A DNA stretch of 64,000 nucleotides from positions 1,588-65,587 of the forward strand of contig CAMIZK010000001.1 of assembly GCA_946403315.1 (NCBI GenBank), written 5' to 3'. Shown piece by piece: positions 4,665 to 62,669 of the stretch (within the stretch, counting starts at the first letter, position 1; each line of letters begins with the position of its first letter). The DNA comes from an uncultured Bacteroidales bacterium. GTDB lineage: Bacteria; Bacteroidota; Bacteroidia; Bacteroidales; Paludibacteraceae. The translations under genes were made by a program, and so were the position numbers. The notes below the pieces were generated by a model. It made no database searches and was not told the DNA's origin. It was given only the letters and a program-made list of their open reading frames with translations.

Positions 4665-7600
4665 TTGACCTCCTCCAATTTATTCTTTCGTGCGTACCAT
4701 AGGTAACCGCGAACAGGGTTATAACCGATCCTGCGCAGTGCCTCTTTATATTCGTTCACCTGCGTATGGTATTTTTTATCCGGATGCTCTCCGAACTTAT
4801 AGTCCAGTACAATGGCTTCATGGGTGACGGGATTGATCATCACACGGTCCGGCCGCAGCTCCTGCCGGTCAATATAGATGGCTTCTTCGAGCCGCAACTC
4901 CCAAGGGGCCGTGAACCAGTCTTTCATCTGCTCATTGCCTTGCCATGCCGATGAAATCAGCGCTTTTAATTCCTCCCGTTGTGCTTTATCCTTGATCTGA
5001 CCATTACTTTCAAACATATCCAGAACGGCATCCAGTTCCTCGGCTTTTCGTACATGCGCGAAGATCTCATGGCATAGCGTTCCTTCATCCATACGTGCCA
5101 CACGGCGGTAGGCTTCATCGCCGTAATCGGTGTATAACGCACCTTCCTGGGACTGAACGAACTGCACTTGTTTGCCATCCGACCATAGTTCGGCCGTCTC
5201 CCCATTCGCCGTTAACCTTTCGCCATTCGCCTTTATCACCGGTGTTCCTACTTCGTAATCATCGGCACCGACAAAATCCATGATATAGCGTCCGACGTGG
5301 TTACAGGTACCCATGACGCCGTTGACCGTAACGGGATAGGAAGTATAGACAAAGAGATTATCTTCCGCCCGGGTGAGCGCCACATAAAGCATATTGAGGT
5401 TATCTATCCGCATGTTGGCATGCTCCTCCTCATGGGCCTCAGCATAGGCCGAATCACCCATCTCCGGTCCGTCTTGAATGGGCACATAATCATCGCCCAT
5501 GTTTAGTTCCGGAGCCACCGGACACCACACTTTCTGCGGATGCCGACCGGCTTCTTTAGGCCACATGCAGAACGGCACGAACAGCGTCTGCGCCTGCAGG
5601 CCTTTGCTGGCATGGACGGTCATGATACGGATGGCATCAGAGGACGTAGCCGGAATAGCTTTGGCATGCATGGTGTCTTCCCAATACGTGAGGAAATCCT
5701 CCTTGCTGCTGCCATATGCGCCTACGTACGCCCGTGTGCGATCCAATAAGTTATTGAGATACGCCGTCTCCGAACCGTGGTACTGGCCGTTCGCATCACA
5801 AAGCAGGATACGGATCAATTCACTGATGGTTTCAAAAAGCGGCGTATCGGGTGTGATGGAGGAACGTATTTGTTCGATGAAACCGATAGAACCTGTACGC
5901 ATCTCGATATACAAAGCCGCCACTAAATCGTTTTTCACCAGCACTCTCAGTCCGGCGATGACCAATTGCACATCTGCCGACGCTTCGAGTACATAACTGT
6001 CTGCACTGACCACCGGATAAGGCGACAGGTCACAGATAAGGTTAGCTTCTTTCTTCTCACGCACCAGAATGAGGATATCCGACAGGCGGGTTCCTTTTTC
6101 TACCAGTTCCCCAATGCGGTCAAACATATAGAGCGCCATTTCCTCTTTCGTTCCTTTTGGAAAGGCTTTGAACTGCACATACCCGCCGGGTTTCTTATCC
6201 GCCTGGTAGAACTGCGATAACTTCTCCTCCTTATATCCTTCTGAGTAGATACGTTCCGGAGCACCGTCTTTACGGATGATACGATCGAAGAGGGAGAGGT
6301 TGAATTTCACCACCTCTTCGGAACTGCGGAAGTTCTGGGTAAGCGATTTGAATTTTTTGTTCAATCGTTCCCCATTCGCCGTTAGCCTTTCGCCATTCGC
6401 CGTTAAACCGTCCATGATATGCCAGTCACCGTTTCGCCAACGGTAGATAGACTGCTTGATATCGCCTACCACGAGCAGGGTGTGACCGGCACCGGCCAAT
6501 ACATCTTCGAGGAGTTTCCGGATAACGGACCATTGCAGCTGGCTCGTATCCTGGAACTCATCCATCAGCACATGCTTGTACCGGATACCGGCTTTCTCCA
6601 AGATAAAGTCGGCATCGCCTTCGCGTAAGGCCTTGCTGAGCGTACCGGCTGTTCGTGCCAGCAGGGCGCAATTGGCTTCCGCCAGATTACGTTGGATGAG
6701 TGCCTGAAGGGACGCCATCAGTTCCTGATCACGCGAAAAACGGATGGTGAGTTGCAGCGTATTATATCTTCGCCCTACCCGTGCCGCCAGTTCCGTCGCC
6801 TGCGCCATCTCATCGGCATTACAACTCTTCTCACTCACACCGCGAAAACGGTCTCTGACCGGTACACTCTCCGGATCGGCCACACTGCGTTTGAGACGCT
6901 CGAAAGCGGCGGTCGTATTTCGGTTATAGGACTCAGGATTACAGTGTTTGAGCAAGTCTTTGAGTTCCCGGAACGAAGGATCGTTGGCCCATTGTTCCTC
7001 GATCGCCTTGCGTCTGCGTTCGATAGCCGCAGCATCAAAAAGAATCTGACCGTCTGCATCCAGCACCTGCACCGATTCGTTATACAGTTCCTTGGCCATG
7101 GCGCAGAGACTTTCCCTCACATCCCAATGACTCTCCTGATCGAGTTTAAGACGCATATATTCCTCCATGATCGCCCGGTCCGCAGGCGTCATGTCAGTGG
7201 TTAGCAACTGATCCACCGCCTGGCGTATCACATGGTCGATGTCCAGTTCGGTATTCAGTCCGGCACTCATCTGCAGCACACCGGCCAGACCGCTGAGCAG
7301 GGTCTGGAGAAAAGCGTCGATCGTCATGACGTGCACATTATCATAGTCCAAGAGCATGCGTTTGAAACATTCCCCTGCGCGCTGCGCCAGCAGTTCTTGA
7401 GGTGCTTCCGCATCACGCAGCATGAACTGCCGGGCACGATTCAGGAAATCCTCTTCCTGACCTTGCGAGATACCATGCAGGTACTTGATGATACGCTCAC
7501 TCATCTCCGACGTCGCCTTGTTGGTAAACGTAATAGCGAGAATAGAGCGATAGTCTTCACCGGACAGCAACAAACCTACATAATACGCTGCTAAAGTATA

Positions 7601-8723: not shown

Positions 8724-9241
8724 AGAAACTTTTGATGATGGCAGCAGTGGCTATGATGGTAGCCGGCTGCGGAATGTTAAAGAACGGAAGTAATGCAACC
8801 GCAAGCAGTCAGCAGACAGCAACAAGCAGTCAGCAGCAGACGGCAGTTAATGCCGGTCAAGGAGCCGGAAAGGCGTTGTTGGCATTGTATAACCAGTACA
8901 AGGCAGACGGCAACAAGTATGACTACAAGAACATGCAGAACGCATTGAACACCGTGACACTGATTGCTAACTGCGAAGGACTGAAATCCAATTACAAGGA
9001 CAAAGAGTATCTGAAGGATTTCGGTAAAGGTTTGATCTCTTCTTCTTTAGGTATGGTGAATCAGAGCAATGTGGAGACGGTGACGAACAGTCTGGTGACG
9101 ATGGTGAAAGAAAACGAAACCGTACAAAACGCTACGCAGACGGCACAGAACACCGCTAACACGGCAGCCGGTTACGCCAATACCGCCTCCCAATACGCAG
9201 GCGCCATCAGTTCGTTACTCAGTGCATTTGGAGGGAAGTAA
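8720..9241 (+). CDS. Hypothetical lipoprotein
   Basis: It has a signal peptide and lipobox ([18 protein letters not shown]). The start overlaps the upstream stop in an ATGA arrangement. A low-complexity [14 protein letters not shown] segment is encoded by 7-nt-periodic DNA. Confidence 0.55.
8801..8842 (+). repeat. 7-nt-periodic (21-nt superperiod) nnnAGCA array in a lipoprotein gene ([14 protein letters not shown])
   Basis: gcaagca gtcagca gacagca acaagca gtcagca gcagacg. Confidence 0.6.
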
Positions 9242-10428
9242 TGAATATCACAGATCGTTTTTTGAAATACGTATCGTTCTGCACAACGAGTGACGAGAAT
9301 ACGGGCATGACCCCTTCGACACCGGGTCAGATGGAGTTTGCCAAGTATCTGGCGCAGGAGTTAAAAACCATCGGTCTCACCGAGGTTTCTCTCGATGAAA
9401 ACGGATATATTATGGCGACATTAGAGGCGAATGGCGAAGGGCGAATGGCGAAGGGCGAATGTCCTACCATCGGTTTCATCGCCCATATGGACACGAGTCC
9501 GGATGCCAGTGGTAAGCATATCAAAGCTTCGATCGTGAAAGCGGAAGAGCGCGATTATATCGATGCGCGTTATGCGGGTCAGGACGTGATTGTAACAGAC
9601 ACAACGACGCTGCTCGGTGCGGACGACAAAGCCGGTATCGCTGAGATCGTAACGGCGATGGAGTATCTGGTACAACATCCGGAGATCAAGCATGGCAAGG
9701 TGCGGGTAGGCTTTACGCCGGACGAAGAGATCGGCCAAGGAGCGGATCATTTTGACGTCAAAGCCTTCGGTTGCGATTTTGCGTACACCATGGACGGCGG
9801 TGCGATTGGTGAGTTGGAGTTCGAGAACTTCAATGCGGCATCGGCGAAAATCAAAGTGCATGGTCTGAATGTGCATCCGGGTTACGGCTATCATAAGATG
9901 CGCAACTCCATGCGCATCGCTTACCAGATTGCCGTCATGTTACCGCGTTTCCAGACACCGGAGCATACGCAGGGTTACGAAGGATTCTACCATTTGGTAG
10001 GCATGAACGGTACCGTAGAAGAAACCACACTCAGTTACATCATCCGGGATCATGACCGCACCCAGTTCGAATACCGCAAACGGGAACTGGAGCATTTGGT
10101 GCGTAAGATTAACACCGAGTTCGGAGAAGGCACAGCGGAGATCGAGATCAAGGATCAATACTATAACATGCGGGAGATGATCGAACCCGTCATGCACATC
10201 ATCGATCTGGCCAAAGAGGCCATGACTGCCGTGGGTGTAACACCTAACGTGAAGCCGATTCGTGGCGGAACAGACGGTGCACGACTGAGTTTTGAAGGTC
10301 TGCCGTGTCCGAACATCTTTGCCGGCGGAGAGAACTTTCACAGCCGGTACGAATACTTACCGGTACCGAGTCTTGAGGCCGCGGAACAAGTTATTTTGGA
10401 AATCATTAAAAAAGCATCAATATGTTAA
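9241..10428 (+). CDS. pepT: Peptidase T (tripeptide aminopeptidase, M20B)
   Basis: The N-terminus is [14 protein letters not shown]. Motifs [29 protein letters not shown] and RGGTDGA are present. It contains an in-frame heptamer array ([12 protein letters not shown]). Confidence 0.85.
9426..9460 (+). repeat. Heptamer array, GGCGAAT/GGCGAAG x5, in frame in pepT ([11 protein letters not shown])
   Basis: ggcgaat ggcgaag ggcgaat ggcgaag ggcgaat. Confidence 0.92.
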
Positions 10429-23900: not shown

Positions 23901-23927
23901 AAAGGCAAAAGGCATTTTACGCCTTTC
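23901..23927 (-). terminator. Possible hairpin downstream of rpmF, fused to the heptamer array
   Basis: Sense strand: AAAGGC-gtaaaat-GCCTTT followed by tgcctttt. The stem is short and the T tract is weak. Confidence 0.3.
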
Positions 23928-23957
23928 ACCTTTCACTTTTCACTTTTCACCTTTCTC
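23923..23957. repeat. Intergenic heptamer array, (C/T)TTTCAC x5, abutting the rpmF stop codon
   Basis: ctttcac ctttcac ttttcac ttttcac ctttctc. The last unit contains the rpmF stop (complement of tca). Confidence 0.85.
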
Positions 23958-24181: not shown

Positions 24182-24637
24182 TCAATCATCAATCTCGGGA
24201 TCCAAATCGTCACATAGGTGATCATGGAGGAGAAGTTCCATCTGCTTATTGCACTCACCTTCTTGGTGACAGTGAACGATCGGAATATTGATACTTACTA
24301 TTTCATAGGCGAGCCAAGAGAGATCGAGACGTTGACTATTAGCTATTGGCTGTTGGCCTTCTTCGTCTTCGGAGAATATCTCTTGTTCGTCATTTATTTC
24401 AAGGGGCATCGGGTCGAGGCATCTATCACACACGACAAAGACAGTTCCATGAACCGCGATGTTGAGCTGATAGTCCTCCTCCCGGAGATTTAGCGTCGCT
24501 TTTGCTACCACCGTTCCACTTAGAATTTCCGACTTCTCTAAGGAAGCAAAGAACTCGTCATCTAACTGAATATCAAACTGATGCGTGCCTATAGGCAGAC
24601 GCGACAAGTCGATCATATAGTGGTCTTTCTCGCTCAT
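24182..24637 (-). CDS. YceD/DUF177 family protein
   Basis: It sits in the conserved position immediately upstream of rpmF. It is an acidic protein of about 150 aa with CDRCL and HC..EGEC motifs. I place the start at ATG 24637, downstream of the promoter. Confidence 0.7.
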   Translation of the reverse strand: MSEKDHYMIDLSRLPIGTHQFDIQLDDEFFASLEKSEILSGTVVAKATLNLREEDYQLNIAVHGTVFVVCDRCLDPMPLEINDEQEIFSEDEEGQQPIANSQRLDLSWLAYEIVSINIPIVHCHQEGECNKQMELLLHDHLCDDLDPEIDD

Positions 24638-26990: not shown

Positions 26991-27283
26991 CAGCCCAATA
27001 TTCTGCAGTCTTTGATAGCGGGTGCACCGACGGCTTCATTCAACTTTCGAACCAGTTCAAAGCGGTTTTCAAAGAGTTGCGCCTTGAGTGCCGCTGAGTT
27101 CACATGCACAATGAGCATGCCGTCTTTCACCTCGATACTTCGTGTTAGTTTGGAAATCGTTTCCCCCATCACCTGCGGCCATATTTCTTCGATCTGCACA
27201 TCAAGCACAGACTGTTCCAAACCGCTCTCACGGAGGTATTCCACAAGAGCGTCGGTGATGGAAAGGGTATTAGCGGGCGCCAT
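26990..27283 (-). CDS. DUF721-like small protein
   Basis: The 97-aa protein matches the size and pattern recalled for DUF721 (WPQVMGE...T....V.DG.L.V.V.S.A....L). Its gene is tightly packed between the glucosaminidase gene and mutS2. Confidence 0.5.
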   Translation of the reverse strand: MAPANTLSITDALVEYLRESGLEQSVLDVQIEEIWPQVMGETISKLTRSIEVKDGMLIVHVNSAALKAQLFENRFELVRKLNEAVGAPAIKDCRILG

Positions 27284-28310
27284 CGTCTTTCACTTTTTTG
27301 AGATACAGTTTCTGGCGGGTACGGAAGGTACGGATCGTCGGATCCAGACCATTCAGTTTCTGAATCGCTTCGATCATCACACATTCTTCCTGACTGAGTT
27401 TCCAAAGCGACTGGCCGGGAAACGTCATCACATACTCCTTAGTTCCCGTTGATTTCTTTGCAGCCAGATAGATTCGGTCCCCCGGCATCAGATCCCGTCC
27501 CAAAGCATCGTTATTCTCCCGCAGATCCCGTTCCCGTACATTCAGCCGGAAAGCCACATTCGCATAGGTATCCCCTTCACGAGCCGTAACATAACTCACT
27601 CCGTTGAATTTCTTTTTCGGATGTGCTAACAGAAAACTGTCACGTTCCTGACGAGCCGTCAAAGGCTCTTTAAATTCCGGTTCCGGATCGTTATGAATGA
27701 CCATGATCGGTTCGGTCTTATGAACCACCACCGCCTTGAGCGGTCGTTTCGGCTGTTCATACACTTGATGTACCTGCGCCTGAGGATCAAACATACCTAC
27801 CTCCGCCAGGGAAACCAAGGTATCCAAACGGTAGTCTTCAATAATCTTAATTAGTTTCGGTGCATAGTTCTTATCCGTTGCATAACCGCATTCTTTGAGC
27901 CGATATGCCCAGCCTTCGTAGTCTTCCGGTACAATCTCAAAACAGGTCTCATAACGAGGCCGCTGCAAGAATAGCGCATGGTCATTAAAGGACTCTGCCG
28001 CATTAGCGTACTGACGGAAACACTCGCCCTTCGAATCATCGTCATAATAATAGACCGCACCCATCCAGTCATTATTGCATTTAATGCCGAAATGGTTATT
28101 GGCATTAACCGCCAGTTCACTCTGTCCGGCACCGGACTCCAGCAAGGCTTGCGCCATGATGATAGAAGCCGGAATACCATAGGTGGCCTGGTTCTCGATA
28201 GCGGTATATTTCCATTGTTCGATATAATCGAGATACGCCTGGTTTTGCGCCATAAGACCCATCGAGCAGGTCCAACATAATGCTAAAAAGAGTATTTTTT
28301 TCATATTCAC
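27270..28310 (-). CDS. Secreted N-acetylglucosaminidase-domain protein with C-terminal LysM repeats
   Basis: It has a signal peptide, a glucosaminidase motif (IIMAQALLESGAGQSELAVNANNHFGIK), and two LysM-like segments (YVTAREGDTYANVAFRLNV; MTFPGQSLWKLSQ). Confidence 0.8.
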   Translation of the reverse strand: MNMKKILFLALCWTCSMGLMAQNQAYLDYIEQWKYTAIENQATYGIPASIIMAQALLESGAGQSELAVNANNHFGIKCNNDWMGAVYYYDDDSKGECFRQYANAAESFNDHALFLQRPRYETCFEIVPEDYEGWAYRLKECGYATDKNYAPKLIKIIEDYRLDTLVSLAEVGMFDPQAQVHQVYEQPKRPLKAVVVHKTEPIMVIHNDPEPEFKEPLTARQERDSFLLAHPKKKFNGVSYVTAREGDTYANVAFRLNVRERDLRENNDALGRDLMPGDRIYLAAKKSTGTKEYVMTFPGQSLWKLSQEECVMIEAIQKLNGLDPTIRTFRTRQKLYLKKVKDDGAR

Positions 28311-28335: not shown

Positions 28336-28367
28336 CAAAAGTACAAAAAAATTTGCATATATGCAAA
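28336..28367 (-). promoter_or_regulatory. Promoter of the glucosaminidase/LysM gene (half of a divergent pair)
   Basis: Sense strand: TTTGCATATATGCAAATTTTTTTG-TACTTTTG, with 20-nt spacing. Confidence 0.75.
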
Positions 28368-28383
28368 AAAAGCAGTAATTTTG
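28352..28383 (+). promoter_or_regulatory. Promoter of the lipoprotein / DAHP synthase transcription unit (other half of the divergent pair)
   Basis: TTTGCATATATGCAAAAAAAGCAG-TAATTTTG, with 20-nt spacing. It shares the palindrome TTTGCATATATGCAAA (28352-28367) with the minus-strand promoter. Confidence 0.75.
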
Positions 28384-28403
28384 TGCCGTAAAATTTAATT
28401 TTT

Positions 28404-28853
28404 ATGAAAAAATACGTATTTATCAGTCTATTCGCGTTGGTAGCAGTAGCATTTACCGCTTGTACAAGCGCCGACGCACCGCAACACAAACGGACCGTTG
28501 ATCTGGTAGCGAACTCCAATAGTTGGACCTTCGATGAGGGAGCCAACATGTATTTCTGCCATTTCGATGTGGCGGAAATCACTTCGAAAGTATATAACTA
28601 CGGTGAGTTCAGCGTGAACCGCGAATACAACACAGGTACACCGAACGCCTATCAGGTAGCATTGCCGGAAACAACCTATCAGCAGGTGGATCTGGATAAC
28701 GGCGACGGCACGTCCAGTCCTTATTATTTCCAACAGCATATCGACTATGCCGTAGGCATCGGGTTTGTAGAAGTATTCTGCACGATCTCCGATTTCTACT
28801 ATGAAGGCTTCAGTCCGGAAGGAATGCTGTTCCGTCTGCAGATGACCTATTAG
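28404..28853 (+). CDS. Hypothetical lipoprotein
   Basis: It has a signal peptide and lipobox (LVAVAFTAC) and a promoter 20 nt upstream. I recognised no family. Confidence 0.5.
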   Translation: MKKYVFISLFALVAVAFTACTSADAPQHKRTVDLVANSNSWTFDEGANMYFCHFDVAEITSKVYNYGEFSVNREYNTGTPNAYQVALPETTYQQVDLDNGDGTSSPYYFQQHIDYAVGIGFVEVFCTISDFYYEGFSPEGMLFRLQMTY

Positions 28854-28882
28854 CAGTCAGCCATCAGACATCAGACATACAT
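28854..28882 (+). repeat. Heptamer array of the CAG(C/A)CAT family between the lipoprotein stop and the conserved start of the DAHP synthase homology
   Basis: cagt cagccat cagacat cagacat acat. It is in frame with the downstream GPCSAES motif (QSAIRHQTY). Confidence 0.85.
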
Positions 28883-28919
28883 ATTAGGACCCTGTAGCGC
28901 CGAAAGTCGCGAACAGGTA

Positions 28920-29864
28920 TTGTTCACCGCGGAACAAATCAAAGCGTCCTGCGGTGATATTCCTTTTATATTTCGCGCAGGCGCGTGGAAGCCACGTACG
29001 AGTCCGCATACCTTTCAAGGTGTTGGTGACGAGGCTTTGGTATGGTTGCAAGAAGTCAAAGCACGTTTCGGCATTCCGGTAGCCACGGAAGCAGCGACAC
29101 CGGAACACGTAGAGAAAGCGCTGAAGGTAGGGATAGACTATGTATGGATAGGCGCCAGAACCAGCGCCAGTCCTATTGCTGTAGAAGCCATCGCGCAAGC
29201 GCTGAAGGATCATCCTCTGAAAGGAGTGCTGATCAAGAACCCGGTGAATGCCGATGCGCAGTTATGGTTAGGGAACATCGAGCGCTTGGAAAAAACGGGT
29301 ATTCCGGTGATGGCGGTACATCGAGGCTGCAATCACCAGCCGTGCTGGTCTTTGGCGCATGCGATCCGTACACAACGACCGGATATACCGCTGCTGTTAG
29401 ACCCAAGCCATATGAGCGGCAATGCGGCCAAAGTGCCGGAGTTGATGTCCAAAATAGAAGAATTATCGTTGGACGGTGCGATGATCGAAGTGCATTGTGA
29501 TCCGGCGAATGCGTTATCCGACAATGCACAGCAGATAACCCCTGATCGTATAAATCACCTTATTACATCGATAGCATTACCTGATCATCCTAGACTTTAC
29601 ACCTATGAATCACCTACCCAGGACCTGGAAGAGTTGAACTGGCTGCGGGCGGAAATCGATGAACTGGATGACCGTCTATGGGACACAATTTCAGCGCGCA
29701 TGGAAGTGAGCAAACGGATCGGAGCATGGAAGAAAGCGCACGGCGTAGCACCGCTTCAGCCGGAACGGTACCGGCAGATAGCTGATAAAGTACAACAAAA
29801 AGGAGATTTTGCACTCCGCATATGGGATTTGATACACGAAGAGAGTTTGAAACAACAAGAATAG
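28920..29864 (+). CDS. 3-deoxy-7-phosphoheptulonate (DAHP) synthase fused to chorismate mutase type II; the start is unresolved
   Basis: FRAGAWKPRTSP, WIGARTSASP and DPSHMSG motifs match DAHPS I-beta. The C-terminal segment (ELNWLRAEIDELDDRL...RI) is chorismate-mutase-like. Family similarity (ILGPCSAESREQV) continues upstream of the TTG at 28920 to about 28881, and no canonical start is available there (see findings). Confidence 0.8.
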   Translation: MFTAEQIKASCGDIPFIFRAGAWKPRTSPHTFQGVGDEALVWLQEVKARFGIPVATEAATPEHVEKALKVGIDYVWIGARTSASPIAVEAIAQALKDHPLKGVLIKNPVNADAQLWLGNIERLEKTGIPVMAVHRGCNHQPCWSLAHAIRTQRPDIPLLLDPSHMSGNAAKVPELMSKIEELSLDGAMIEVHCDPANALSDNAQQITPDRINHLITSIALPDHPRLYTYESPTQDLEELNWLRAEIDELDDRLWDTISARMEVSKRIGAWKKAHGVAPLQPERYRQIADKVQQKGDFALRIWDLIHEESLKQQE

Positions 29865-32722
29865 TGAAAAGATTTTTATATATACTGATTTTTTTCCTGG
29901 GTATTGCCGGGATGGCAAAGGCGCAGGATGGTAGCGGTCTAACGACCGGTATATCGGGTATCGTGGTAGATGAAAATACCGGAGAGACCTTACCGTTTGT
30001 GCAAATCTACTTCCTTAAGTCCACAACGAACAAAGGTATGATTGCATCGGAAGTAGGTACTACCTCCGATATTGACGGTAATTTCTCCATCAGCAACACG
30101 GAGGGATATATCACCGTCAATTTTCAGATGATAGGTTACAAGACGGAGATGTTAACCTTGCGCAAAGGCCAAAACCGCACCAACGTGAAGGTGAAACTGA
30201 AACCCGACGTCTATGGCCTACAGGATATCGTAGTCACACCCAAGAACCGCAAACGGGATTACAAACGCAAAGGAAACCCAGCGGTAGAACTGATCAACAA
30301 CGTCATTGCACGCAAAGATTCGTTCTGTGTACGAACGGCCGACCAATACACAGCTACCAGTTATTCGCGTATGTCCTTTGCGCTGGATAACATCACGGTC
30401 AACTGGGAAAAACCATTCTGGAAGAAGTTCAATTTTGTGCAGAAATACATTGACACGACGGGTGTTTATCCGAACGTGACGGTAAGTATTCGGGAGCATT
30501 TGAACGAAGAGTATTTCCAGCGCAAACCGCACCGTGAGAAGAAAGTGCTGCAGAAAAAACGTATCTTCGGTATCGAGGATGTGATCGGTTCAGGCAGTTT
30601 TCAAGAGAACGTCAACGCTATCTTCAAAGATGTGGACATCAATGACAATAGCATGAACCTGCTGTTCAATCGCTTCGTGTCGCCTTTGTCCTCTACACTT
30701 GCCACCACGTTCTACCAGTACTATATCATGGATACGATCATGGTGGACGGCTATCCGTGTATCGACTTGGCGTTTGTGCCGGTGAACTCCCAGAGTTACG
30801 GGTTTACCGGTCACCTCTATATCGTAAATGACTCCACTTTCCGGCTTAAGAAATACGCCATTAACGTACCGCCGGAGATCAACCTCAACTTTGTAAGTAA
30901 CTTCTCCATCGAGCATAGCTACACCCAGTTGGAGAACGGTTTATGGGCGCCGGATAGAACGACGACATATGCCAAATTCTATATTCTGAACAACAAACGC
31001 GGTATTTTAGCTCGTCAGACAAGGATTTATACCGGATGGGATCTGGAGACCCCAATTCCCCGGGAGACGTTCTCCAGTTTTAATGAAGATGAAGTGGAAA
31101 CGAATGACTCTACGGCCGTCCGGCTCAATGCCGCCGCTTGGGAGAGTTTGCGACCGGAACCGCTGACATTCTATGAGAGTTCCGTGGAGAACCTGGTAGA
31201 CGAATTTACCCACACGCCGGCGTTTAACAGTCTGGCGCTCTTTGTGAATGCCATCACGACGGAGTTTATTCCTACGGTACCTTCCTCTATCATGTGGGAG
31301 AGTAAGTTTGACATCGGTCCGATTTATAACTTCCTCAGTTGGAATCCGCTGGAAGGGGTGCGTGTGCGTTTCGGTGGTGCCAGTACTTCCAAGTTACATG
31401 ACCAGGTGTTCTTCCGCAGTTATGTGGCCTTCGGTACCAAGGACTTGAGACCGAAATACAATGCGACGCTGGTGTATACCTTCGACAAACACAAGAACCA
31501 TCCTTATACCGGTCTACGTCACCATATTCAGTTTAGTGCGCAGTACGATGTAGAGGAACCGGGACAAGTAACTGACGTCGTGACACGAGATAATATCCTG
31601 ATGTCTATCCCGTTGAGCAAACCGACGGTGGGCTTTAACCAATATGTCTTCCATGCCAAAGTGGATTATATGAAGGAATGGCCGAATAAGTTCTCCATTA
31701 AGACCGGTTTTGACTTCAACAACAACGAAGCCGCCGGCGCGTTAACCTACAAACGGATGAATTGGGCCATGCAACCCGACTCGTCATGGACGCTGTCGCA
31801 AAACATCATTCCTTCTTATCGTAACTATGAGGGATACCTGGAGTTCCAATACTCACCGGGTAGCCGTATTTCCATTGACCGGATGGGCTTTGAAAGTCCG
31901 TGGGGAATGGAGAAAGATGCACCTACGTTTAAACTCAAACACGTAGTGGGCTATCTGGACGACCGGCACACCGGTGGTGACGGATTTATCTATAACCGTA
32001 CCGAGTTCTCGTTTGACAAGCGCTTCTGGTTCTCCGCTTTCGGTCACTTGGATATGCGAATCCAGACCGGTATGGTGTGGCAGAAAGCACCGTTCACTAA
32101 ACTGTATATCCCGGAGAGCAGTACCAGTATTCTGCTGGCACAACGGTCGTTTAACCAGATGAAACCGATGGAGTTCCTCATGGACCAGCACGTTTCGCTT
32201 TTCGCTACCTATTACTTCAAAGGCTGGATCTTGAACCGCATCCCGGGTATCAACAAACTCAAGTTACGCGGTGTCGTTTCGTTTGCAGGTGTGTACGGTG
32301 GTTTGACCAAGAAGAACAACCCGTATCTCGAAACAGGAACAGGTCTGTATGAGTTCCCTCACACGCCGTGGGAGAAAAATGCAGATGGAACGGATAACAT
32401 GCAGGCAGCATTTGACAATAACGGCTATATCAAAGATAACTTCCGCACCTCGTCTCCGATTGGTAAACTGCCGTACATGGAGATAACGGCCGGCTTTGAG
32501 AATATCTTGAAATTTATCCGTATCGATTATATCCGCCGTCTCACATATAATGACTACGAGTTGCCGTATATGATCCAGAAGATGGAGCCGGATCCGGAGA
32601 ATCCGGTGCAGTTCAAACCTGCCGTAGATGAGAACGGTGATCCGGTGATGATTCACGGTCGCCGTAAGATCGGTGCCTGGGGTCGAAACGGAGTAAAAAT
32701 AACCGTGCGTTTTGCTTTATGA
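29822..32722 (+). CDS. CarboxypepD_reg-domain outer-membrane protein (DUF5686-like)
   Basis: A signal peptide (...GIAGMAKAQ) is followed by GIVVDENTGETLPFVQIYF...TSDIDGNFSI, which is carboxypeptidase-regulatory-like. The long C-terminal region is beta-rich. Alternative starts are GTG 29864 (overlapping the upstream TAG) and ATG 29912. Confidence 0.6.
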   Translation: MGFDTRREFETTRIVKRFLYILIFFLGIAGMAKAQDGSGLTTGISGIVVDENTGETLPFVQIYFLKSTTNKGMIASEVGTTSDIDGNFSISNTEGYITVNFQMIGYKTEMLTLRKGQNRTNVKVKLKPDVYGLQDIVVTPKNRKRDYKRKGNPAVELINNVIARKDSFCVRTADQYTATSYSRMSFALDNITVNWEKPFWKKFNFVQKYIDTTGVYPNVTVSIREHLNEEYFQRKPHREKKVLQKKRIFGIEDVIGSGSFQENVNAIFKDVDINDNSMNLLFNRFVSPLSSTLATTFYQYYIMDTIMVDGYPCIDLAFVPVNSQSYGFTGHLYIVNDSTFRLKKYAINVPPEINLNFVSNFSIEHSYTQLENGLWAPDRTTTYAKFYILNNKRGILARQTRIYTGWDLETPIPRETFSSFNEDEVETNDSTAVRLNAAAWESLRPEPLTFYESSVENLVDEFTHTPAFNSLALFVNAITTEFIPTVPSSIMWESKFDIGPIYNFLSWNPLEGVRVRFGGASTSKLHDQVFFRSYVAFGTKDLRPKYNATLVYTFDKHKNHPYTGLRHHIQFSAQYDVEEPGQVTDVVTRDNILMSIPLSKPTVGFNQYVFHAKVDYMKEWPNKFSIKTGFDFNNNEAAGALTYKRMNWAMQPDSSWTLSQNIIPSYRNYEGYLEFQYSPGSRISIDRMGFESPWGMEKDAPTFKLKHVVGYLDDRHTGGDGFIYNRTEFSFDKRFWFSAFGHLDMRIQTGMVWQKAPFTKLYIPESSTSILLAQRSFNQMKPMEFLMDQHVSLFATYYFKGWILNRIPGINKLKLRGVVSFAGVYGGLTKKNNPYLETGTGLYEFPHTPWEKNADGTDNMQAAFDNNGYIKDNFRTSSPIGKLPYMEITAGFENILKFIRIDYIRRLTYNDYELPYMIQKMEPDPENPVQFKPAVDENGDPVMIHGRRKIGAWGRNGVKITVRFAL

Positions 32723-46511: not shown

Positions 46512-46543
46512 CAAAATTACTGCTTTTTTGTCAACCCCACAAT
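46512..46543 (-). promoter_or_regulatory. Probable promoter of the giant surface-protein gene
   Basis: Sense strand: aTTGtggggttgacaaaaaagcag-TAATTTTG, with 20-nt spacing. The AAAAAAGCAGTAnnTTTG block is the same as in three other promoters. The ATG lies about 65 nt downstream. Confidence 0.6.
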
Positions 46544-46633: not shown

Positions 46634-47797
46634 TTATGCAATATCTGAATGCTGACGGCTGACGGCTGATAGCTTTTTCAAATGACAGAGCATGAGACTG
46701 CCGTCTTCCCGGCGAAGGTGCATTCCGTTGCCTTCGCAGAACGAGAAAGCCTTGCAGTCTTTGCAGGGTTCCGTTTGCCGCATCCAACTGCGGTCACGGT
46801 ACGGTTTAAATCCGTTTTCCCAAACGGACCAGAAAGAGTCTTTGTAGATATTGCCCTGGTAGTATTTTCCCCGGATGGAGGTGCAGGCAGATATCGAACC
46901 GTCGATGAGAATAGAGGCAACGGAGATACCGGCTGCGCATTGGTAGAGATGATCCCGTACACGCCCTTCATAGTCCCCCAAATAGCCTTCGCACGAATAG
47001 CTCACATGCCTACCCGCTTCCCGTTCGCACACGATATAGTCCATTAGCTGTTTGAACTGCGCATCCATAAGGATCAATTCCGGATTTTCCGCTGCACGCC
47101 CCATAGGGTCGATACCGAAGACACGCCAATTGCGAACACCCAGTTCCCACAGCATCTCCCTTATCGCCGGTAAGTGGTCTATCGTGCGCTGGTTCACACA
47201 CGTCACCACATCCCAGGCTATCGGCTGACGGCTGACGGCTAAATGCTGACGGCTGACGGCTGAATGCTGACGGCTGACGGCTGAATGCTGACGGCTGTTA
47301 TAATCCGCAATCAGTTTGATTGCTCGTGTGGCACCTTCGAAAGCCAAAGGGTGCTGCCGCAGCCATACATGGTCCGCTTCCAAACCGTCACACGAGACGG
47401 TGATGGAGCGTAAACCGGCATCTAACAGTTCATGAAATTTCTTCTCCGTCAGCGCCAAACCGTTGGTCACCATTCCCCATGGATAGCCGCGTTGCTTGAG
47501 CGCCCTACCCACTTCCGCCAAGTCTTTGCGCATCAGCGGTTCACCGCCGGAGATAACGATCATCACTTCATGCGGATCCACGTGCGGTGTCACTTCCGTG
47601 TCGATGACCTTAAGAAAGTCTTCCGCCGGCATGTCCGGCGTCTCGATAGACGCAATGCAGTCGCTGCCGCAATGCAGGCAATGTACATTACATCGTAATG
47701 TGGACTCCCAGAACAGCTGGCGTAACGGATGCAACTCCTTCAAGTTATGCCTCCGCCAACGCTCTAACCACAGCGCTATCTTCAGCCTCAGTCTCAT
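46634..47797 (-). CDS. Radical SAM enzyme with a C-terminal SPASM domain
   Basis: CNVHCLHC is a CxxxCxxC motif, and ISGGEPL is present. The C-terminal Cys-rich SPASM-like region reads CAAGISVASILIDGSISAC...CKDCKAFSFCEGNGMH. The start overlaps the lipoprotein stop (ATGA, 47794-47797). It has two in-frame heptamer arrays. Confidence 0.85.
   Translation of the reverse strand: MRLRLKIALWLERWRRHNLKELHPLRQLFWESTLRCNVHCLHCGSDCIASIETPDMPAEDFLKVIDTEVTPHVDPHEVMIVISGGEPLMRKDLAEVGRALKQRGYPWGMVTNGLALTEKKFHELLDAGLRSITVSCDGLEADHVWLRQHPLAFEGATRAIKLIADYNSRQHSAVSRQHSAVSRQHLAVSRQPIAWDVVTCVNQRTIDHLPAIREMLWELGVRNWRVFGIDPMGRAAENPELILMDAQFKQLMDYIVCEREAGRHVSYSCEGYLGDYEGRVRDHLYQCAAGISVASILIDGSISACTSIRGKYYQGNIYKDSFWSVWENGFKPYRDRSWMRQTEPCKDCKAFSFCEGNGMHLRREDGSLMLCHLKKLSAVSRQHSDIA
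46644..46671 (-). repeat. Heptamer array with sense unit CAGCCGT, at the extreme C-terminus of the rSAM/SPASM gene (LSAVSRQHSDIA-stop)
   Basis: Plus strand: tctgaat gctgacg gctgacg gctgata. Confidence 0.85.
47217..47300 (-). repeat. 12-unit (84 nt) heptamer array with a 21-nt superperiod inside the rSAM/SPASM gene (SRQHSAV x about 4)
   Basis: Plus strand: gctatcg gctgacg gctgacg gctaaat gctgacg gctgacg gctgaat gctgacg gctgacg gctgaat gctgacg gctgtta. Confidence 0.95.
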
Positions 47798-48562: not shown

Positions 48563-48617
48563 CGCACTTATCGCGCACAAATGACGCACTTATCTCGTAC
48601 TTATCACGCACTAATTT
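48563..48617 (-). repeat. Five tandem 11-nt repeats in the 5' leader of the 145-aa gene 48079..48516
   Basis: Plus strand: cgcacttatcg cgcacaaatga cgcacttatct cgtacttatca cgcactaattt. The sense-strand consensus is ATAAGTGCGnn. Confidence 0.85.
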
Positions 48618-54824: not shown

Positions 54825-56222
54825 ATGCAAAGAACAGTAATTATCGATGCGTTAAAACGCACGGATTTTGGGTCAGAGATCAACGTGAGAGGATGGGTTC
54901 GCAGCCGTCGCGGCAATAAACAAGTGTCGTTTATTGCGCTGAATGACGGTTCGACGATCAAGAACATCCAGATCGTGGTGGACCTGGAGAAATTCGATGA
55001 GGAGCGACTCAAACCTGTGACTACCGGTTCGTGTATCTCAGCGACGGGTATCCTGGTAGAGAGTCAGGGAGCAGGTCAGGCGGTTGAGATTCAACTGAAG
55101 GATCTGGAAGTCTATGGTACCGCTGATCCGGAGAAATACCCGTTACAGAAGAAAGGTCTGAGTATGGAGTTTTTGCGTACTATCGCACATCTCCGTCCCC
55201 GTACCAACACCTTTGGTGCGGTATTCCGTATCCGTCATAACATGGCCATGGCGATTCACACCTATTTCCATGAGCATGGATACTTCTATTTCCACACGCC
55301 GCTCATCACGGCCAGTGACTGCGAAGGTGCCGGTCAGATGTTCCAGGTGACGACCAAGAACCTGTATAACCTCAAGTACGACGAGAACGGTCAGATCGAT
55401 TATAGCGACGATTTCTTCGGCAAACAGGCAGCGCTTACCGTTTCCGGGCAGTTGGAAGGTGAGTTAGGCGCCATGGCATTAGGAAAAATCTATACCTTCG
55501 GTCCTACGTTCCGTGCAGAGAACAGTAACACACCGCGTCACTTAGCGGAGTTCTGGATGATTGAGCCGGAAGTGGCGTTCATTCAGAAAGAGGAACTCAT
55601 GGACCTCGAAGAAGACTTCATCAAATACTGCGTTCGTTGGGCCTTAGAGCATTGTATGGATGACCTGGAGTTCCTCAACCAGTTTGTGGACAAGGGTCTG
55701 ATCGAGCGTCTGAAATCGGTGGTAGATACCGAGTTTGTCCGCCTACCCTACACCGAGGGTATTAACATCCTGCAGGAAGCCATCAAGAACGGTAAGAAGT
55801 TTGAGTTCCCCTGCAACTGGGGCGATGACTTGAGTTCGGAGCATGAGCGTTTCTTAGTGGAAGAGCACTTCAAGAAACCCGTCATCATGACCGACTATCC
55901 GAAGGATATCAAGGCGTTCTACATGAAGATCAACGAGGACGGAAAGACCGTGCAAGGTACCGACGTGCTGTTCCCGCAGATCGGTGAGATCATCGGCGGT
56001 AGTGTACGTGAGGAGAGTCTGGACCTGCTGAACGATGAGATTGAGCGTCGTCATATCCCGATGAAGGATATGTGGTGGTATTTGGACACCCGTCGTTTCG
56101 GTAGCGCACCGCACGCAGGCTTCGGTTTAGGCTTCGAGCGTCTGATGCTGTTCGTAACGGGTATGCAAAACATCCGTGACGTCATTCCGTTCCCGAGAAC
56201 ACCGAAAACGGCGGAGTTCTAA
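54825..56222 (+). CDS. asnS: Asparagine--tRNA ligase
   Basis: The 465-aa protein has an OB-fold N-terminus ([23 protein letters not shown]) and class II motifs ([34 protein letters not shown]). Confidence 0.92.
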
Positions 56223-56223
56223 T

Positions 56224-56258
56224 TGAAAAATGAAAAATGAAAATTGAAAATTGAAAAT
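56224..56258. repeat. Intergenic heptamer array, TGAAAA(A/T) x5, immediately after the asnS stop
   Basis: tgaaaaa tgaaaaa tgaaaat tgaaaat tgaaaat. Confidence 0.9.
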
Positions 56259-56291
56259 TTCATATCATAAAAACACTAACAAACAATCGTT

Positions 56292-62576: not shown

Positions 62577-62669
62577 ATTGTGTGTATTTTTGAATTGCTT
62601 TTGGGTATTTAGAGGGTAAGGACTCTATAGTGCCGTTGTAAGGTGGTCCGTGGATGAAACCGATTATAA

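What the first reader, a model, noticed from the sequence alone, without database searches (positions are those of the whole stretch)
28851..28925. A heptamer array replaces the 5' end of the DAHP synthase gene and leaves no canonical start codon upstream of the catalytic GPCS motif
The ORF track starts the gene at TTG 28920, but the frame is open from 28854 and translates QSAIRHQTYILGPCSAESREQV-L-FTAEQIK. The segment I(L/A)GPCS.ES.EQ is the conserved N-terminal strand of type I-beta DAHP/KDO8P synthases. From memory of the Thermotoga enzyme, the Cys of GPC is a metal ligand. A product starting at 28920 would lack it. Between the upstream TAG (28851-28853) and 28920 there is no ATG, GTG or TTG in any frame; only ATC 28863 and ATA 28881 are in frame. 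The 18 or so residues that normally precede this motif are occupied by cagccat-cagacat-cagacat. The upstream lipoprotein ORF is in the same frame, separated only by the single TAG. Possible explanations are initiation at a non-canonical ATA/ATC codon, a truncated (inactive or altered) enzyme, or a switch dependent on repeat copy number.
Basis: partly seen in the sequence, partly recalled or inferred. Interest (0 to 1): 0.65.

Follow-up and report, generated by a model that had tools for sequence, protein, structure and literature searches.

The report
DAHP synthase gene with ATC start
The gene for the first enzyme of aromatic amino-acid synthesis is intact, not beheaded: its whole family has a naturally short front end, and here, as in about 20 related rumen bacteria, it most likely starts at a rare non-standard start codon (ATC) that gene finders cannot see.

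Summary
TAG lies at 28851-53, the frame is open from 28854 (QSAIRHQTYILGPCS...), and there is no ATG, GTG or TTG in any frame before TTG 28920. Three heptamers lie at 28857-78.

The main interpretation is not supported. Nothing was replaced. In this family (rumen Paludibacteraceae DAHP synthase fused to chorismate mutase), orthologues with ATG starts have only 7-9 residues before GPC.

Across 31 related loci:
- Codons GPC to V, all upstream of TTG 28920, are invariant at positions 1 and 2 and saturated at position 3.
- No in-frame stop occurs in codons -9 to -1, while 17 of 31 loci have one at -12 to -10.
- Start-like codons pile up at -8 and -9: ATC/ATT/ATA/CTG in about 20 loci, TTG/GTG/ATG in the rest.

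The window's ATC 28863 is codon -8, which is where L026 and five outgroup loci have their ATG. The gene is under purifying selection (dN/dS about 0.1) and is transcribed together with the upstream lipoprotein gene. The junction is identical in at least 10 independent assemblies, with no heptamer copy-number variants.

Best reading: a 333-aa active enzyme that starts at ATC 28863, 9 nt after the upstream stop, possibly by termination-reinitiation. TTG 28920 is a gene-caller artefact. The heptamers belong to a genome-wide family of arrays.

The parts
28352..28383 (+). Promoter-like region for the operon: TTTG (28352-55), a 20-nt spacer, then TAATTTTG (28376-83). This resembles the Bacteroidota -33/-7 consensus TTTG / TAnnTTTG.
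   Evidence: Sequence. A 24-mer containing it recurs upstream of the giant gene at 46512-35. The consensus itself is from memory of the Bacteroides promoter literature. Function is inferred, not shown.
28404..28853 (+). Upstream gene: a 149-aa predicted lipoprotein (MKKYVFISLFALVAVAFTAC...) that ends ...FRLQMTY-TAG. It is the syntenic partner of the DAHPS gene across the clade.
   Evidence: ORF. No Pfam hit, and only a weak PG1828-family lipoprotein signal-peptide match. A homologue lies directly upstream of the DAHPS gene in 29 of the 31 close-clade loci; L019's contig is too short to tell.
28851..28853 (+). TAG stop of the lipoprotein gene, 9 nt before the proposed DAHPS start.
28857..28878 (+). 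Heptamer array TCAGCCA-TCAGACA-TCAGACA-T. It is one member of a genome-wide family of sense-strand heptamer arrays, and it contains the proposed start codon and codons 2-5.
   Evidence: TRF, chance test, the same TCAGNNA unit at 42-70 and 61653-91, and identical copy number in all assemblies.
28863..28865 (+). ATC, the proposed near-cognate initiation codon (codon -8 relative to GPC).
   Evidence: It sits at the position of the ATG in L026, L033, L036, L037, L039 and L040; other outgroup loci have ATG at -5, -7 or -9. ATC/ATT/ATA occupy this position (-8 or -9) in about 19 loci. It is the only near-cognate codon in frame between the stop and codon -3. A natural variant, ATT (C>T at 28865), occurs in RNA contigs X25/X26.
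28863..29864 (+). Proposed full coding sequence of the bifunctional DAHP synthase/chorismate mutase: 333 aa, ending at stop TAG 29862-64.
   Evidence: Pfam PF00793 covers residues 9-234 and PF01817 covers residues 264-336 of the 28854-based translation. PDB relatives match at E = 2e-30. dN/dS is 0.09-0.13.
28887..28898 (+). The GPCS motif. Cys codon TGT 28893-95 aligns with Cys31 of 1zco (metal ligand).
   Evidence: Alignment. G, P and C are invariant in 31 loci, with third positions saturated.
28920..28922 (+). TTG (codon +11), the start chosen by ORF and gene callers. Rejected as the real start.
   Evidence: Public protein calls P0001 (314 aa, 58 members) and P0002 begin here or one codon upstream. 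Codon +11 is L, M or I in orthologues, and the 11 codons before it are under strong protein-level constraint.
29864..32722 (+). Downstream gene (CarboxypepD_reg plus DUF5686). It most likely starts at GTG 29864, which overlaps the DAHPS stop by 1 nt (TAGTG), giving MKRFLYILIFFLGIAGMAKAQ.
   Evidence: Sequence, Pfam. In related loci this junction shows ATGA, GTGA or TAGTG overlaps, or a canonical start (ATG, GTG or TTG) after a spacer.

Best explanation
The gene is intact and encodes an active 333-aa type I-beta DAHP synthase with a C-terminal AroQ chorismate mutase. Its N-terminus is naturally minimal, with about 8 residues before GPCS. Translation starts at the near-cognate codon ATC 28863, read by initiator tRNA as Met. 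The message is polycistronic: promoter at about 28352-83, then the lipoprotein gene, then the DAHPS-CM gene, then the DUF5686 gene. The ATC lies 9 nt after the lipoprotein gene's TAG and inside a heptamer array.

Mechanism (inferred, not shown): ribosomes that terminate at TAG 28851-53 re-initiate at the nearby ATC (termination-reinitiation coupling). The weak codon holds the enzyme's output well below that of the upstream gene. TTG 28920 is an artefact of gene finders, which only allow ATG, GTG and TTG.

Shown here: the region upstream of TTG 28920 is under protein-level selection, the reading-frame boundary lies at codons -9/-8, ATC occupies the homologue of the orthologues' start, the two genes are co-transcribed, and the junction is stable.

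Inferred: use of ATC as the start, the coupling, and the dosage rationale.
For: 1. Orthologues have short N-termini. P0006 starts MSINKPIYILGPC. L026, L033, L036, L037, L039 and L040 have ATG at codon -8.
2. In 31 close-clade loci, codons 0 to +10 (GPC(S/A)AE(S/T)REQV) have zero or near-zero entropy at positions 1 and 2, and up to 1.94 bits at position 3. They are therefore translated, and all lie upstream of TTG 28920.
3. There are no in-frame stops in codons -9 to -1 across 31 loci, while 17 of 31 loci have a stop at -12 to -10. Start-like codons pile up at -8 (21 loci) and -9 (12 loci), with almost none at -7 to -5.
4. At that position, ATC, ATT, ATA or CTG is the only option in about 18-20 species-level lineages. 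These are spread over the whole clade, down to 58% protein identity.
5. In the window, ATC 28863 is the only near-cognate codon in frame upstream of the conserved Tyr(-3).
6. dN/dS is 0.086 against L001, 0.126 against L044 and 0.126 against L002.
7. The junction is identical in the window, L001, L044 (dS 0.44), L045-L048 and four DNA metagenomes. The only polymorphisms are ATC>ATT and synonymous changes at 28907, codon +4 and codon +10.
8. RNA contigs span the lipoprotein-to-DAHPS junction in four metatranscriptomes: X24, X29, X30 and X33.
9. Relatives show stop/start overlap geometries typical of coupling, but with weak codons: ATTAA or ATTAG (L010, L011, L022, L024), TAATC (L021), TGATA or CTGA (L027), and TTGA (L007, L028). 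ATTAA, ATTAG and ATTGA overlaps of -5 nt were predicted as possible in PMC10666635.
10. The downstream gene in the same loci has a canonical start codon available at the junction in every locus examined, so the weak codon is specific to this gene.
11. There is a precedent in the phylum. Flavobacterium johnsoniae infC starts at ATA and had been mis-annotated by 57 codons (PMC7797042).
Against: - There is no direct evidence for the N-terminus: no proteomics and no ribosome profiling.
- The context of ATC 28863 is not A-rich (G at -3), so de novo initiation should be poor.
- Coupling is not established. Six ATH loci have spacers of 17-61 nt (L012, L013, L014, L023, L025, L031). At that range termination-reinitiation nearly fails in E. 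coli and Haloferax (PMC10666635).
- Spacer length does not differ significantly between weak-codon and canonical loci (Mann-Whitney p = 0.13, Fisher p = 0.46).
- The association of weak codons with the lipoprotein neighbour (18 of 30 against 0 of 11, p = 0.0008) is confounded with phylogeny.
- Every Ile codon is a near-cognate codon by definition. The conserved Ile codons at -4 (absent in the window) and -2 (ATA 28881) cannot be formally excluded as additional start sites.
- Metatranscriptome contigs can contain DNA carry-over.
Confidence: 0.7

Rival explanations
1. The start is the same ATC 28863, but initiation is de novo and not coupled. The stop-free, unstructured heptamer array would act as a leader or standby site for ribosomes, which in this phylum do not use a Shine-Dalgarno sequence.
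For: - Several ATH loci have 17-61-nt spacers filled with 7-8-mer arrays.
- There is no significant link between spacer length and codon type.
- The junction RNA is unstructured (z = -0.22).
- Canonical start triplets in any frame are about two-fold depleted around the ATH codons: 27 observed against 49 expected. This matches the AUG avoidance in Bacteroidota initiation regions summarised in PMC7797042.
- Heptamer repeats next to start codons are described in Beggiatoaceae, cyanobacteria and Bacteroidetes (PMC4679880).
Against: - In E. coli, ATH codons give only about 0.1-1% of ATG activity de novo. Hecht et al. 2017, as quoted in PMC10666635, report ATT at about 0.3%.
- The window's context lacks the favourable A at -3 and -6.
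- 12 of 18 weak-codon loci lie within 10 nt of the upstream stop or overlap it.
- No function has ever been shown for such arrays.
Confidence: 0.25
2. Translation starts at ATA 28881 (codon -2), alone or in addition to ATC, giving M-L-G-P-C-S...
For: - ATA 28881 is in frame and near-cognate.
- Codon -2 is ATA in 26 of 31 loci.
- F. johnsoniae infC uses ATA.
Against: - Codon -2 is also Ile in orthologues that start with ATG. It corresponds to a hydrophobic beta-strand residue in solved enzymes (TIIAGPCS and FVFGPCS), so its conservation is explained structurally.
- Codons -3 (Tyr, with both TAC and TAT) and -4 (Ile or Val) show coding-type conservation.
- No stops occur in codons -9 to -3 in 31 loci.
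Confidence: 0.08
3. The product starts at TTG 28920, as annotated. This would be a truncated enzyme lacking the GPCS strand and the Cys ligand: inactive, or retaining only the chorismate mutase function.
For: - TTG 28920 is the first canonical start codon.
- All public gene calls use it or its neighbour (P0001 and P0002).
Against: - The 11 codons before it are invariant at the protein level, with saturated synonymous change across 31 loci.
- Codon +11 is Leu, Met or Ile in orthologues that have upstream starts.
- dN/dS is about 0.1 over the whole barrel. Such constraint would be pointless for a barrel lacking strand 1 and a metal ligand.
Confidence: 0.03
4. This is a pseudogene, or a gene recently beheaded when a heptamer array or the lipoprotein gene was inserted.
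For: No canonical start codon is present, and an array sits at the 5' end.
Against: - The same arrangement (lipoprotein gene, short or array-filled spacer, weak start) is found in about 30 species-level lineages.
- dN/dS is about 0.1.
- The gene is transcribed.
- Nothing is missing relative to orthologues that start with ATG.
Confidence: 0.02
5. The array is a phase-variable switch: gain or loss of 7-nt units moves a start codon in or out of frame.
For: Three tandem 7-nt units overlap the start, and the ATC recurs at 28870 in another frame.
Against: - The copy number is identical in the window, L001, L044-L048 and the contigs of four DNA and four RNA metagenomes. These span up to dS 0.44.
- A pattern search that allowed a 10-40 nt spacer returned only the 24-nt form.
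- Another array (23922-55) also keeps its copy number between strains.
- Three units is short for slippage.
Confidence: 0.02
6. TAG read-through or recoding fuses the lipoprotein and the DAHPS, which are in the same frame.
For: The two ORFs are in frame and separated by a single TAG.
Against: - The relative frame is not conserved. The distance from stop to GPC is 19, 20, 23, 28, 37, 41, 43... nt in relatives, and overlaps occur in other frames.
- Fusing a secreted lipoprotein to a cytosolic enzyme makes little biological sense.
Confidence: 0.01

Closest known systems
Genes with near-cognate AUU/AUA starts: E. coli infC (AUU) and Flavobacterium johnsoniae infC (ATA) (PMC7797042)
   Same: An Ile-type near-cognate codon serves as the start of a conserved bacterial gene. 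Automatic annotation picks a downstream canonical codon and cuts off conserved residues. One of the examples is in Bacteroidota.
   Different: infC's weak codon is the sensor of an IF3 autoregulatory loop, whereas here the gene is a metabolic enzyme with no known link to IF3. The start here has not been verified experimentally. The codon identity drifts among ATC, ATT, ATA, CTG, TTG, GTG and ATG across the clade.
Translational coupling by termination-reinitiation at overlapping or abutting stop/start codons such as ATGA and TAATG (PMC6728339, PMC10666635)
   Same: The two genes are co-directional and co-transcribed. The spacer is 9 nt in the window. Relatives have -5 (ATTAA, ATTAG), -4 (TTGA, CTGA) and -1 (TAATC, TGATA) overlaps. 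The -5 ATT overlaps are exactly those PMC10666635 listed as the only way to obtain a -5 overlap.
   Different: The start codons are mostly non-canonical. Several relatives have spacers of 17-61 nt, where coupling should fail. The partners are not subunits of one complex. Dependence on upstream translation has not been tested.
TAACTGA/TCAGTTA heptamer direct repeats adjacent to start codons in Beggiatoaceae, cyanobacteria and some Bacteroidetes, including Paludibacter propionicigenes (MacGregor 2015, PMC4679880)
   Same: Short tandem arrays of period 7 sit at gene junctions, next to or overlapping start codons, with no predicted RNA structure. The exact unit TCAGTTA occurs at the orthologous junction in L013, L015 and L029. 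The window's TCAGCCA and TCAGACA differ from it by two bases.
   Different: The arrays here are in the translatable ('reverse') orientation and come in several unrelated unit families. Many lie inside housekeeping ORFs as in-frame peptide insertions. The one in question encodes the first residues of the enzyme. The function of either set is unknown.
Characterised Bacteroidales DAH7PS-CM fusion enzymes from Porphyromonas gingivalis and Prevotella nigrescens (PMC12202928, PMC8408635)
   Same: Both have an N-terminal type I-beta DAH7PS barrel, a short linker and a C-terminal AroQ chorismate mutase.
   Different: PgiDAH7PS-CM has 366 aa, and its Pfam domain begins at residue 17. The Paludibacteraceae enzymes have 333-348 aa, and here the Pfam match begins at residue 6 of the 333-aa product, at profile position 20. 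About 25 N-terminal positions of TIGR01361 are absent.
Phase-variable simple-sequence-repeat (contingency) loci
   Same: A tandem repeat overlaps a translation start.
   Different: No copy-number polymorphism was found in at least 10 independent assemblies. There are only three units, and the gene is a housekeeping enzyme.

Membership tests
Type I-beta DAHP synthase fused to C-terminal AroQ chorismate mutase (DAH7PS-CM) | A DAHP_synth_1 TIM-barrel domain followed by a CM_2 domain in one polypeptide | tested here: met
   PF00793 at E = 7.7e-33 (residues 9-234) and PF01817 at E = 2.6e-15 (residues 264-336). NCBIfam matches to DAHP synthase and chorismate mutase models are all below their curated cut-offs.
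Type I-beta DAHP synthase fused to C-terminal AroQ chorismate mutase (DAH7PS-CM) | The four metal ligands Cys, His, Glu and Asp are present (Cys31, His201, Glu227 and Asp238 in the P. furiosus enzyme; residue list from memory) | tested here: met
   The alignment to 1zco places the query residues GPC, DPSH, IEVH and LSD on those positions. The Cys is encoded at 28893-95, upstream of TTG 28920.
Type I-beta DAHP synthase fused to C-terminal AroQ chorismate mutase (DAH7PS-CM) | Catalytic activity (PEP + E4P to DAHP; chorismate to prephenate) | not testable with these tools
   Only indirect support: dN/dS of 0.09-0.13 and transcription in the rumen.
Gene with a near-cognate (non-ATG/GTG/TTG) initiation codon | No canonical start codon lies upstream of residues shown to be under protein-level selection | tested here: met
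   No ATG, GTG or TTG in 28854-28919. Codons 0 to +10 are constrained at the protein level in 31 loci.
Gene with a near-cognate (non-ATG/GTG/TTG) initiation codon | A near-cognate codon sits at the position homologous to orthologues' canonical start, bounded upstream by stops | tested here: met
   ATC 28863 is codon -8. ATG is at -8 in L026, L033, L036, L037, L039 and L040. Stops occur at -12 to -10 in 17 of 31 loci and never at -9 to -1.
Gene with a near-cognate (non-ATG/GTG/TTG) initiation codon | Experimental N-terminus or initiating-ribosome footprint at that codon | not testable with these tools
   No proteomic or ribosome-profiling data were accessible.
Termination-reinitiation coupled gene pair | The two genes are co-directional and on one transcript | tested here: met
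   RNA contigs span 28407/28490-30000 in X24 and X29, 28408-29300 in X30, and 28813-29022 in X33. No TAnnTTTG motif lies between the genes. Caveat: DNA carry-over cannot be excluded.
Termination-reinitiation coupled gene pair | The stop and start overlap or are at most about 10 nt apart | tested here: inconclusive
   The window has +9 nt, and 12 of 18 weak-codon loci have 10 nt or less. Six have 17-61 nt, and there is no significant difference from loci with a canonical start.
Termination-reinitiation coupled gene pair | Downstream translation depends on upstream translation and termination | not testable with these tools
   This needs reporter constructs.
Phase-variable simple-sequence-repeat locus | Repeat copy number is polymorphic within or between closely related populations | tested here: not met
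   The junction has three units in the window, L001, L044-L048, X1, X2, X4, X5, X24, X29, X30 and X33. A variable-gap search found only the 24-nt form.
Pseudogene | Relaxed selection (dN/dS near 1), frameshifts or internal stops, or loss of conserved parts | tested here: not met
   dN/dS is 0.086-0.126. The frame is uninterrupted for 333 codons. No residues are missing relative to orthologues that start with ATG.
TAACTGA-type heptamer direct repeats (MacGregor 2015) | Tandem direct repeats of a 7-nt unit at gene junctions near start codons, present many times per genome | tested here: met
   10 stringent (about 22 by TRF) period-7 arrays in 64 kb, against 0 expected. Arrays occur at this junction in many orthologous loci.
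TAACTGA-type heptamer direct repeats (MacGregor 2015) | Unit sequence TAACTGA (or its complement TCAGTTA) | tested here: not met
   The window units are TCAGCCA and TCAGACA. TCAGTTA itself appears only in relatives L013, L015 and L029. The window array therefore resembles this class but is not a member by sequence.

The most novel reading that the evidence does not exclude
A weak AUH/CUG start codon on the entry enzyme of aromatic amino-acid synthesis has been actively maintained for a long time across rumen Paludibacteraceae. It would work through re-initiation after a conserved lipoprotein gene and/or through heptamer-array leaders. It would act as a translational set-point, or as an IF3/ribosome-state sensor, for flux into the shikimate pathway in a phylum that does not use Shine-Dalgarno sequences. 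The clade would then offer a natural allelic series (ATC, ATT, ATA, CTG, TTG, GTG, ATG; overlaps of -5, -4 and -1; spacers up to 81 nt) for dissecting start selection and coupling in Bacteroidota.
Probability: 0.25. Interest if true: 0.6.

Novelty: new member of a known kind. Interest (0 to 1): 0.4.

Why it matters
**Annotation.** Public catalogues store this enzyme as a 314-316-aa protein that lacks its catalytic Cys (P0001 with 58 member sequences, and P0002). Roughly 20 related species have no callable start at all. Metabolic reconstructions of abundant rumen Paludibacteraceae may therefore wrongly score aromatic amino-acid synthesis as broken or doubtful.

**Biology.** This is a rare example of a metabolic gene whose near-cognate start is conserved across many species, while the neighbouring gene in the same loci keeps canonical starts. 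It includes real examples of the ATTAA and ATTAG -5 overlaps that had only been proposed. That makes it a good natural test bed for start-codon selection and translational coupling in Bacteroidota, which do not use Shine-Dalgarno sequences.

**Heptamer arrays.** The finding also ties the locus to a poorly understood, genome-wide class of heptamer arrays that can sit inside coding sequence.

Tried and rejected
- **RNA element at the junction.** Rfam with permissive E-values found only two sub-threshold chance hits upstream of the lipoprotein gene. RNA folding of 28815-28935 was no more stable than shuffled sequence (z = -0.22). No structured element, riboswitch or attenuator is therefore seen.
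- **Copy-number variation of the heptamers.** I compared five assemblies, laid contigs from four DNA metagenomes, and ran a variable-gap pattern scan of JGI metagenomes. Only the three-unit form was found.
- **Spacer length against start-codon strength, as a test of coupling.** The result was not significant.
- **Internal promoter for the DAHPS gene.** No TAnnTTTG motif lies in 28700-28860. An inverted chimeric RNA contig that begins at 28835 in X25/X26 could mark an RNA 5' end, but it is a single assembly artefact-like observation and was not pursued.
- **Literature on re-initiation at non-canonical codons.** PMC4648390 turned out to describe a eukaryotic (Xenopus oocyte) system and was not used.
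- **Fusion by TAG read-through.** Rejected because the relative frame is not conserved.
- **Second DAHPS gene in the genome.** This could not be tested.
- **Structure prediction.** Not run. Homologues returned by the search were too similar (about 70% identity) to add to what the E = 1e-30 alignments to solved structures already show.
Full report
**1. The observation**

The sequence is as described.
- The 149-aa lipoprotein ORF (28404-28853) ends with TAG at 28851-53.
- The same frame continues open from 28854 as QSAIRHQTYILGPCSAESREQV-L-FTAEQIK.
- The first ATG, GTG or TTG in any frame is TTG 28920.
- ATC 28863 and ATA 28881 are the only in-frame near-cognate codons.

Tandem Repeats Finder reports TCAGCCA-TCAGACA-TCAGACA at 28857-78.

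The gene is a DAHP_synth_1 barrel with a C-terminal CM_2 domain. Its closest solved relatives are type I-beta DAH7P synthases (E down to 2e-30). The Cys of GPC aligns with Cys31 of the P. furiosus enzyme, so a product starting at 28920 would indeed lack it.

**2. Where the window comes from, and whether the junction is real**

The window matches the rumen MAG RUG14556 ('uncultured Bacteroidales', Paludibacteraceae) at 96% nucleotide identity.

The junction from 28841 to 28920 is letter-for-letter the same in:
- that MAG;
- a 90%-identical strain (L044);
- two Logan contigs (L045, L046);
- two JGI metagenome contigs (L047, L048);
- contigs of four further DNA metagenomes.

The only differences are synonymous: codon +4 GCC>GCT, codon +10 GTA>GTG and 28907 T>C. 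A pattern search that allowed the spacer to be 10-40 nt found only the 24-nt form.

It is therefore neither an assembly error nor a copy-number-variable site.

**3. The family's N-terminus is short**

That fits Porphyromonas (366 aa, Pfam domain from residue 17; PMC12202928) and the archaeal and Firmicute enzymes. It does not fit this clade.
- Orthologues at 70% identity start MSINKPIYILGPC.
- L026, L033, L036, L037, L039 and L040 have ATG exactly eight codons before GPC; other outgroup loci have it at -5, -7 or -9.
- The window's residues S-A-I-R-H-Q-T-Y-I-L align with these N-termini. Compare SAISHQPIFIF in L008 and VISHQKIYIL in L015.

Nothing has been replaced.

**4. Where translation must begin**

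I anchored 31 close-clade loci (species representatives plus the window) on GPC.
- Codons 0 to +10 are all upstream of the window's TTG. They are invariant or nearly so at positions 1 and 2, and close to saturated at position 3. This is the signature of a translated, constrained segment.
- Codons -4 to -1 (I/V, Y, I, L/V/F) also look coding. Upstream of -9, all three positions are random.
- In-frame stops never occur in codons -9 to -1, yet 17 of 31 loci have one at -12 to -10.
- Start-like codons pile up at -8 (21 loci) and -9 (12 loci), and are essentially absent at -7 to -5.

At that position the codon varies by locus:

| Codon at the start position | Loci |
|---|---|
| ATC, ATT or ATA | about 19 |
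| CTG | 1-2 |
| TTG | 3-6 |
| GTG | 4 |
| ATG | 2 |

In at least 13 loci there is no canonical codon at all between the stop and GPC. The window's ATC 28863 is codon -8. A natural variant in two metatranscriptomes changes it to ATT.

An NJ tree shows the weak codons spread over the whole clade (20 loci, down to 58% protein identity), interspersed with TTG, GVG-type (GTG) and ATG. The outgroup uses ATG.

The gene is under purifying selection, with dN/dS of 0.086-0.126.

I conclude that the gene is intact and that ATC 28863 is its most likely start, giving a 333-aa protein. TTG 28920 is what ORF finders fall back on: P0001 (314 aa, 58 member sequences) and P0002 (316 aa) in the public protein collection.

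**5. How it may work**

The operon:
- The lipoprotein gene is the conserved upstream neighbour. A homologue is found upstream in 29 of the 31 close-clade loci.
- Upstream of it lies a Bacteroidota-type promoter-like TTTG...TAATTTTG at 28352-83.
- RNA contigs from four rumen metatranscriptomes run across the lipoprotein-to-DAHPS junction.
- The downstream DUF5686 gene most likely starts at GTG 29864, overlapping the DAHPS stop (TAGTG).

The picture is one operon with tight junctions.

Evidence bearing on coupling:
- At the DAHPS start, relatives show the classical coupling geometries, but with weak codons: ATTAA or ATTAG (-5) in L010, L011, L022 and L024; TAATC or TGATA (-1) in L021 and L027; CTGA or TTGA (-4) in L027, L007 and L028; and +1 to +10 nt in the window, L008, L009, L015, L020 and L043.
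- PMC10666635 noted that ATT is the only start that could give -5 overlaps. These loci are such cases.
- The same paper shows that termination-reinitiation decays steeply with distance. That fits the window (+9 nt) but not the six weak-codon loci with 17-61-nt spacers.
- Spacer length does not separate weak from canonical loci (p = 0.13).

Coupling is therefore my preferred mechanism, but only at about even odds. The alternative is de novo initiation on an unstructured array leader:
- The junction RNA shows no structure (z = -0.22).
- No Rfam element is present.
- Canonical start triplets are about two-fold depleted around the ATH codons.

The weak codon is specific to this gene. In the same loci, the next gene has an ATG, GTG or TTG available at its junction in every case. 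This argues for tolerance of, or selection for, low output of this enzyme relative to its neighbours, rather than a lineage-wide relaxation of start selection.

Within Bacteroidota, use of ATA as a genuine start, and its mis-annotation, has been shown for F. johnsoniae infC (PMC7797042).

**6. The heptamers**

The array is real, but it is one of many.
- The window holds about 22 period-7 arrays by TRF, or 10 by a stringent criterion against 0 expected.
- They fall into a few unit families and always have the same orientation relative to the sense strand.
- The TCAGNNA family recurs at 42-70 and 61653-91.
- Many arrays lie inside conserved genes as in-frame insertions: AISHQPSAIS in HPPK, SRQHSAV repeats in a radical-SAM/SPASM protein, and ANGE(G/R) repeats in the AddB/UvrD-like nuclease and helicase genes and in an M20 peptidase gene.
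- At the orthologous DAHPS junction, other species carry different 7-8-mer arrays: L013 TCAGTTA/TCAGTAG, L016-L018 octamers, L025 AAATTGA and L038 AAATGGT. These fill whatever spacer exists. The same is true of the next junction.
- Copy numbers are stable between strains at about 97-98% nucleotide identity.

The closest described phenomenon is the set of TAACTGA/TCAGTTA direct repeats next to start codons in Beggiatoaceae, cyanobacteria and some Bacteroidetes, including Paludibacter (PMC4679880). Their function is unknown.

In the window, the array encodes the first residues of the enzyme and supplies the ATC. Whether it contributes to initiation is untested.

**7. Verdict**

The headline interpretation (5' end replaced, enzyme possibly truncated or switched) is not supported.

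This is a new, clade-wide example of a known kind of feature: a near-cognate start codon, probably in a coupled operon context. It has a practical consequence for annotation and moderate interest for translation-initiation biology in Bacteroidota.

Noticed in passing
window 42-70, 360-397, 1734-1753, 2859-2889, 3761-3791, 4144-4176, 4348-4417, 5202-5231, 6368-6401, 8804-8846, 9426-9461, 23922-23955, 24332-24357, 46651-46669, 47222-47297, 56221-56259, 61655-61693: There are heptamer tandem arrays across the whole window, in a few unit families (TCAGCCA, CTCCAAT, GGCGAAT, GTAACCC, TGAAAGG, AATTGAA). They always have the same orientation relative to the sense strand. Many sit inside conserved housekeeping ORFs (HPPK, AddB-like nuclease, UvrD-like helicase, M20 peptidase, two radical-SAM genes, YceD) as in-frame peptide insertions such as AISHQPSAIS, SRQHSAV x3 and ANGEGR. 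Stringent count: 10 period-7 arrays against 0 expected. This may be the most unusual feature of the window.
   Followed up: partly
L005, L012-L020, L023, L025, L029, L038 around the DAHPS start; L012-L020 and L023 after the DAHPS stop: Orthologous gene junctions in other Paludibacteraceae MAGs are filled with unrelated 7-8-nt tandem arrays. Examples are CCATTTA, TCAGTTA/TCAGTAG, GAAAGART, GATGGART, GAATTAGY, AAATTGA and AAATGGT before the DAHPS start, and GTTGAAA, AGATTTGA and TAATTGA after the DAHPS stop. In this lineage, array turnover appears to create the intergenic spacers.
   Followed up: partly
L010, L011, L022 (ATTAA) and L024 (ATTAG), at the lipoprotein/DAHPS junction: These are apparent natural -5-nt stop/start overlaps that use ATT as the start. 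PMC10666635 mentioned this configuration only as a theoretical possibility.
   Followed up: partly
window 29822-29866: The ORF list starts the DUF5686/CarboxypepD_reg gene at ATG 29822, which overlaps the DAHPS gene by 43 nt. The real start is more likely GTG 29864, which overlaps the TAG stop (TAGTG) and gives a clean signal peptide, MKRFLYILIFFLGIAGMAKAQ. Relatives use ATGA, GTGA or TAGTG at this junction.
   Followed up: yes
window 28344-28386 and 46512-46535 (- strand): The promoter-like 24-mer (T/G)(A/T)TG(C/A)CAAAAAAGCAGTAATTTTG lies upstream of the lipoprotein operon and again upstream of the 3164-aa gene. The 28344-86 stretch also matches many different, highly covered RNA contigs in rumen metatranscriptomes (up to about 700x), and it lies directly upstream of the DAHPS gene in L030. 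This may be a shared strong promoter or leader module.
   Followed up: partly
window about 27750 (gene 27270-28310, - strand), compared with L047 4694-4754 and L048: There is a 61-nt insertion/deletion difference between strains inside the linker of the LysM/glucosaminidase-like ORF. It is not a heptamer array.
   Followed up: no
window 48563-48612 and 62669-62731: There are intergenic 11-nt tandem arrays (CGCACTTATCA x4.5 and ACCTACTAATC x5.7), distinct from the heptamer families.
   Followed up: no
window 28835 / 28930 in RNA runs X25 and X26: The same inverted (snap-back-like) chimeric RNA contig begins at 28835 in two metatranscriptomes, while no contig covers the lipoprotein gene there. 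It could mark an RNA 5' end or processing site 28 nt before the ATC/ATT, or it could be an assembly artefact.
   Followed up: no
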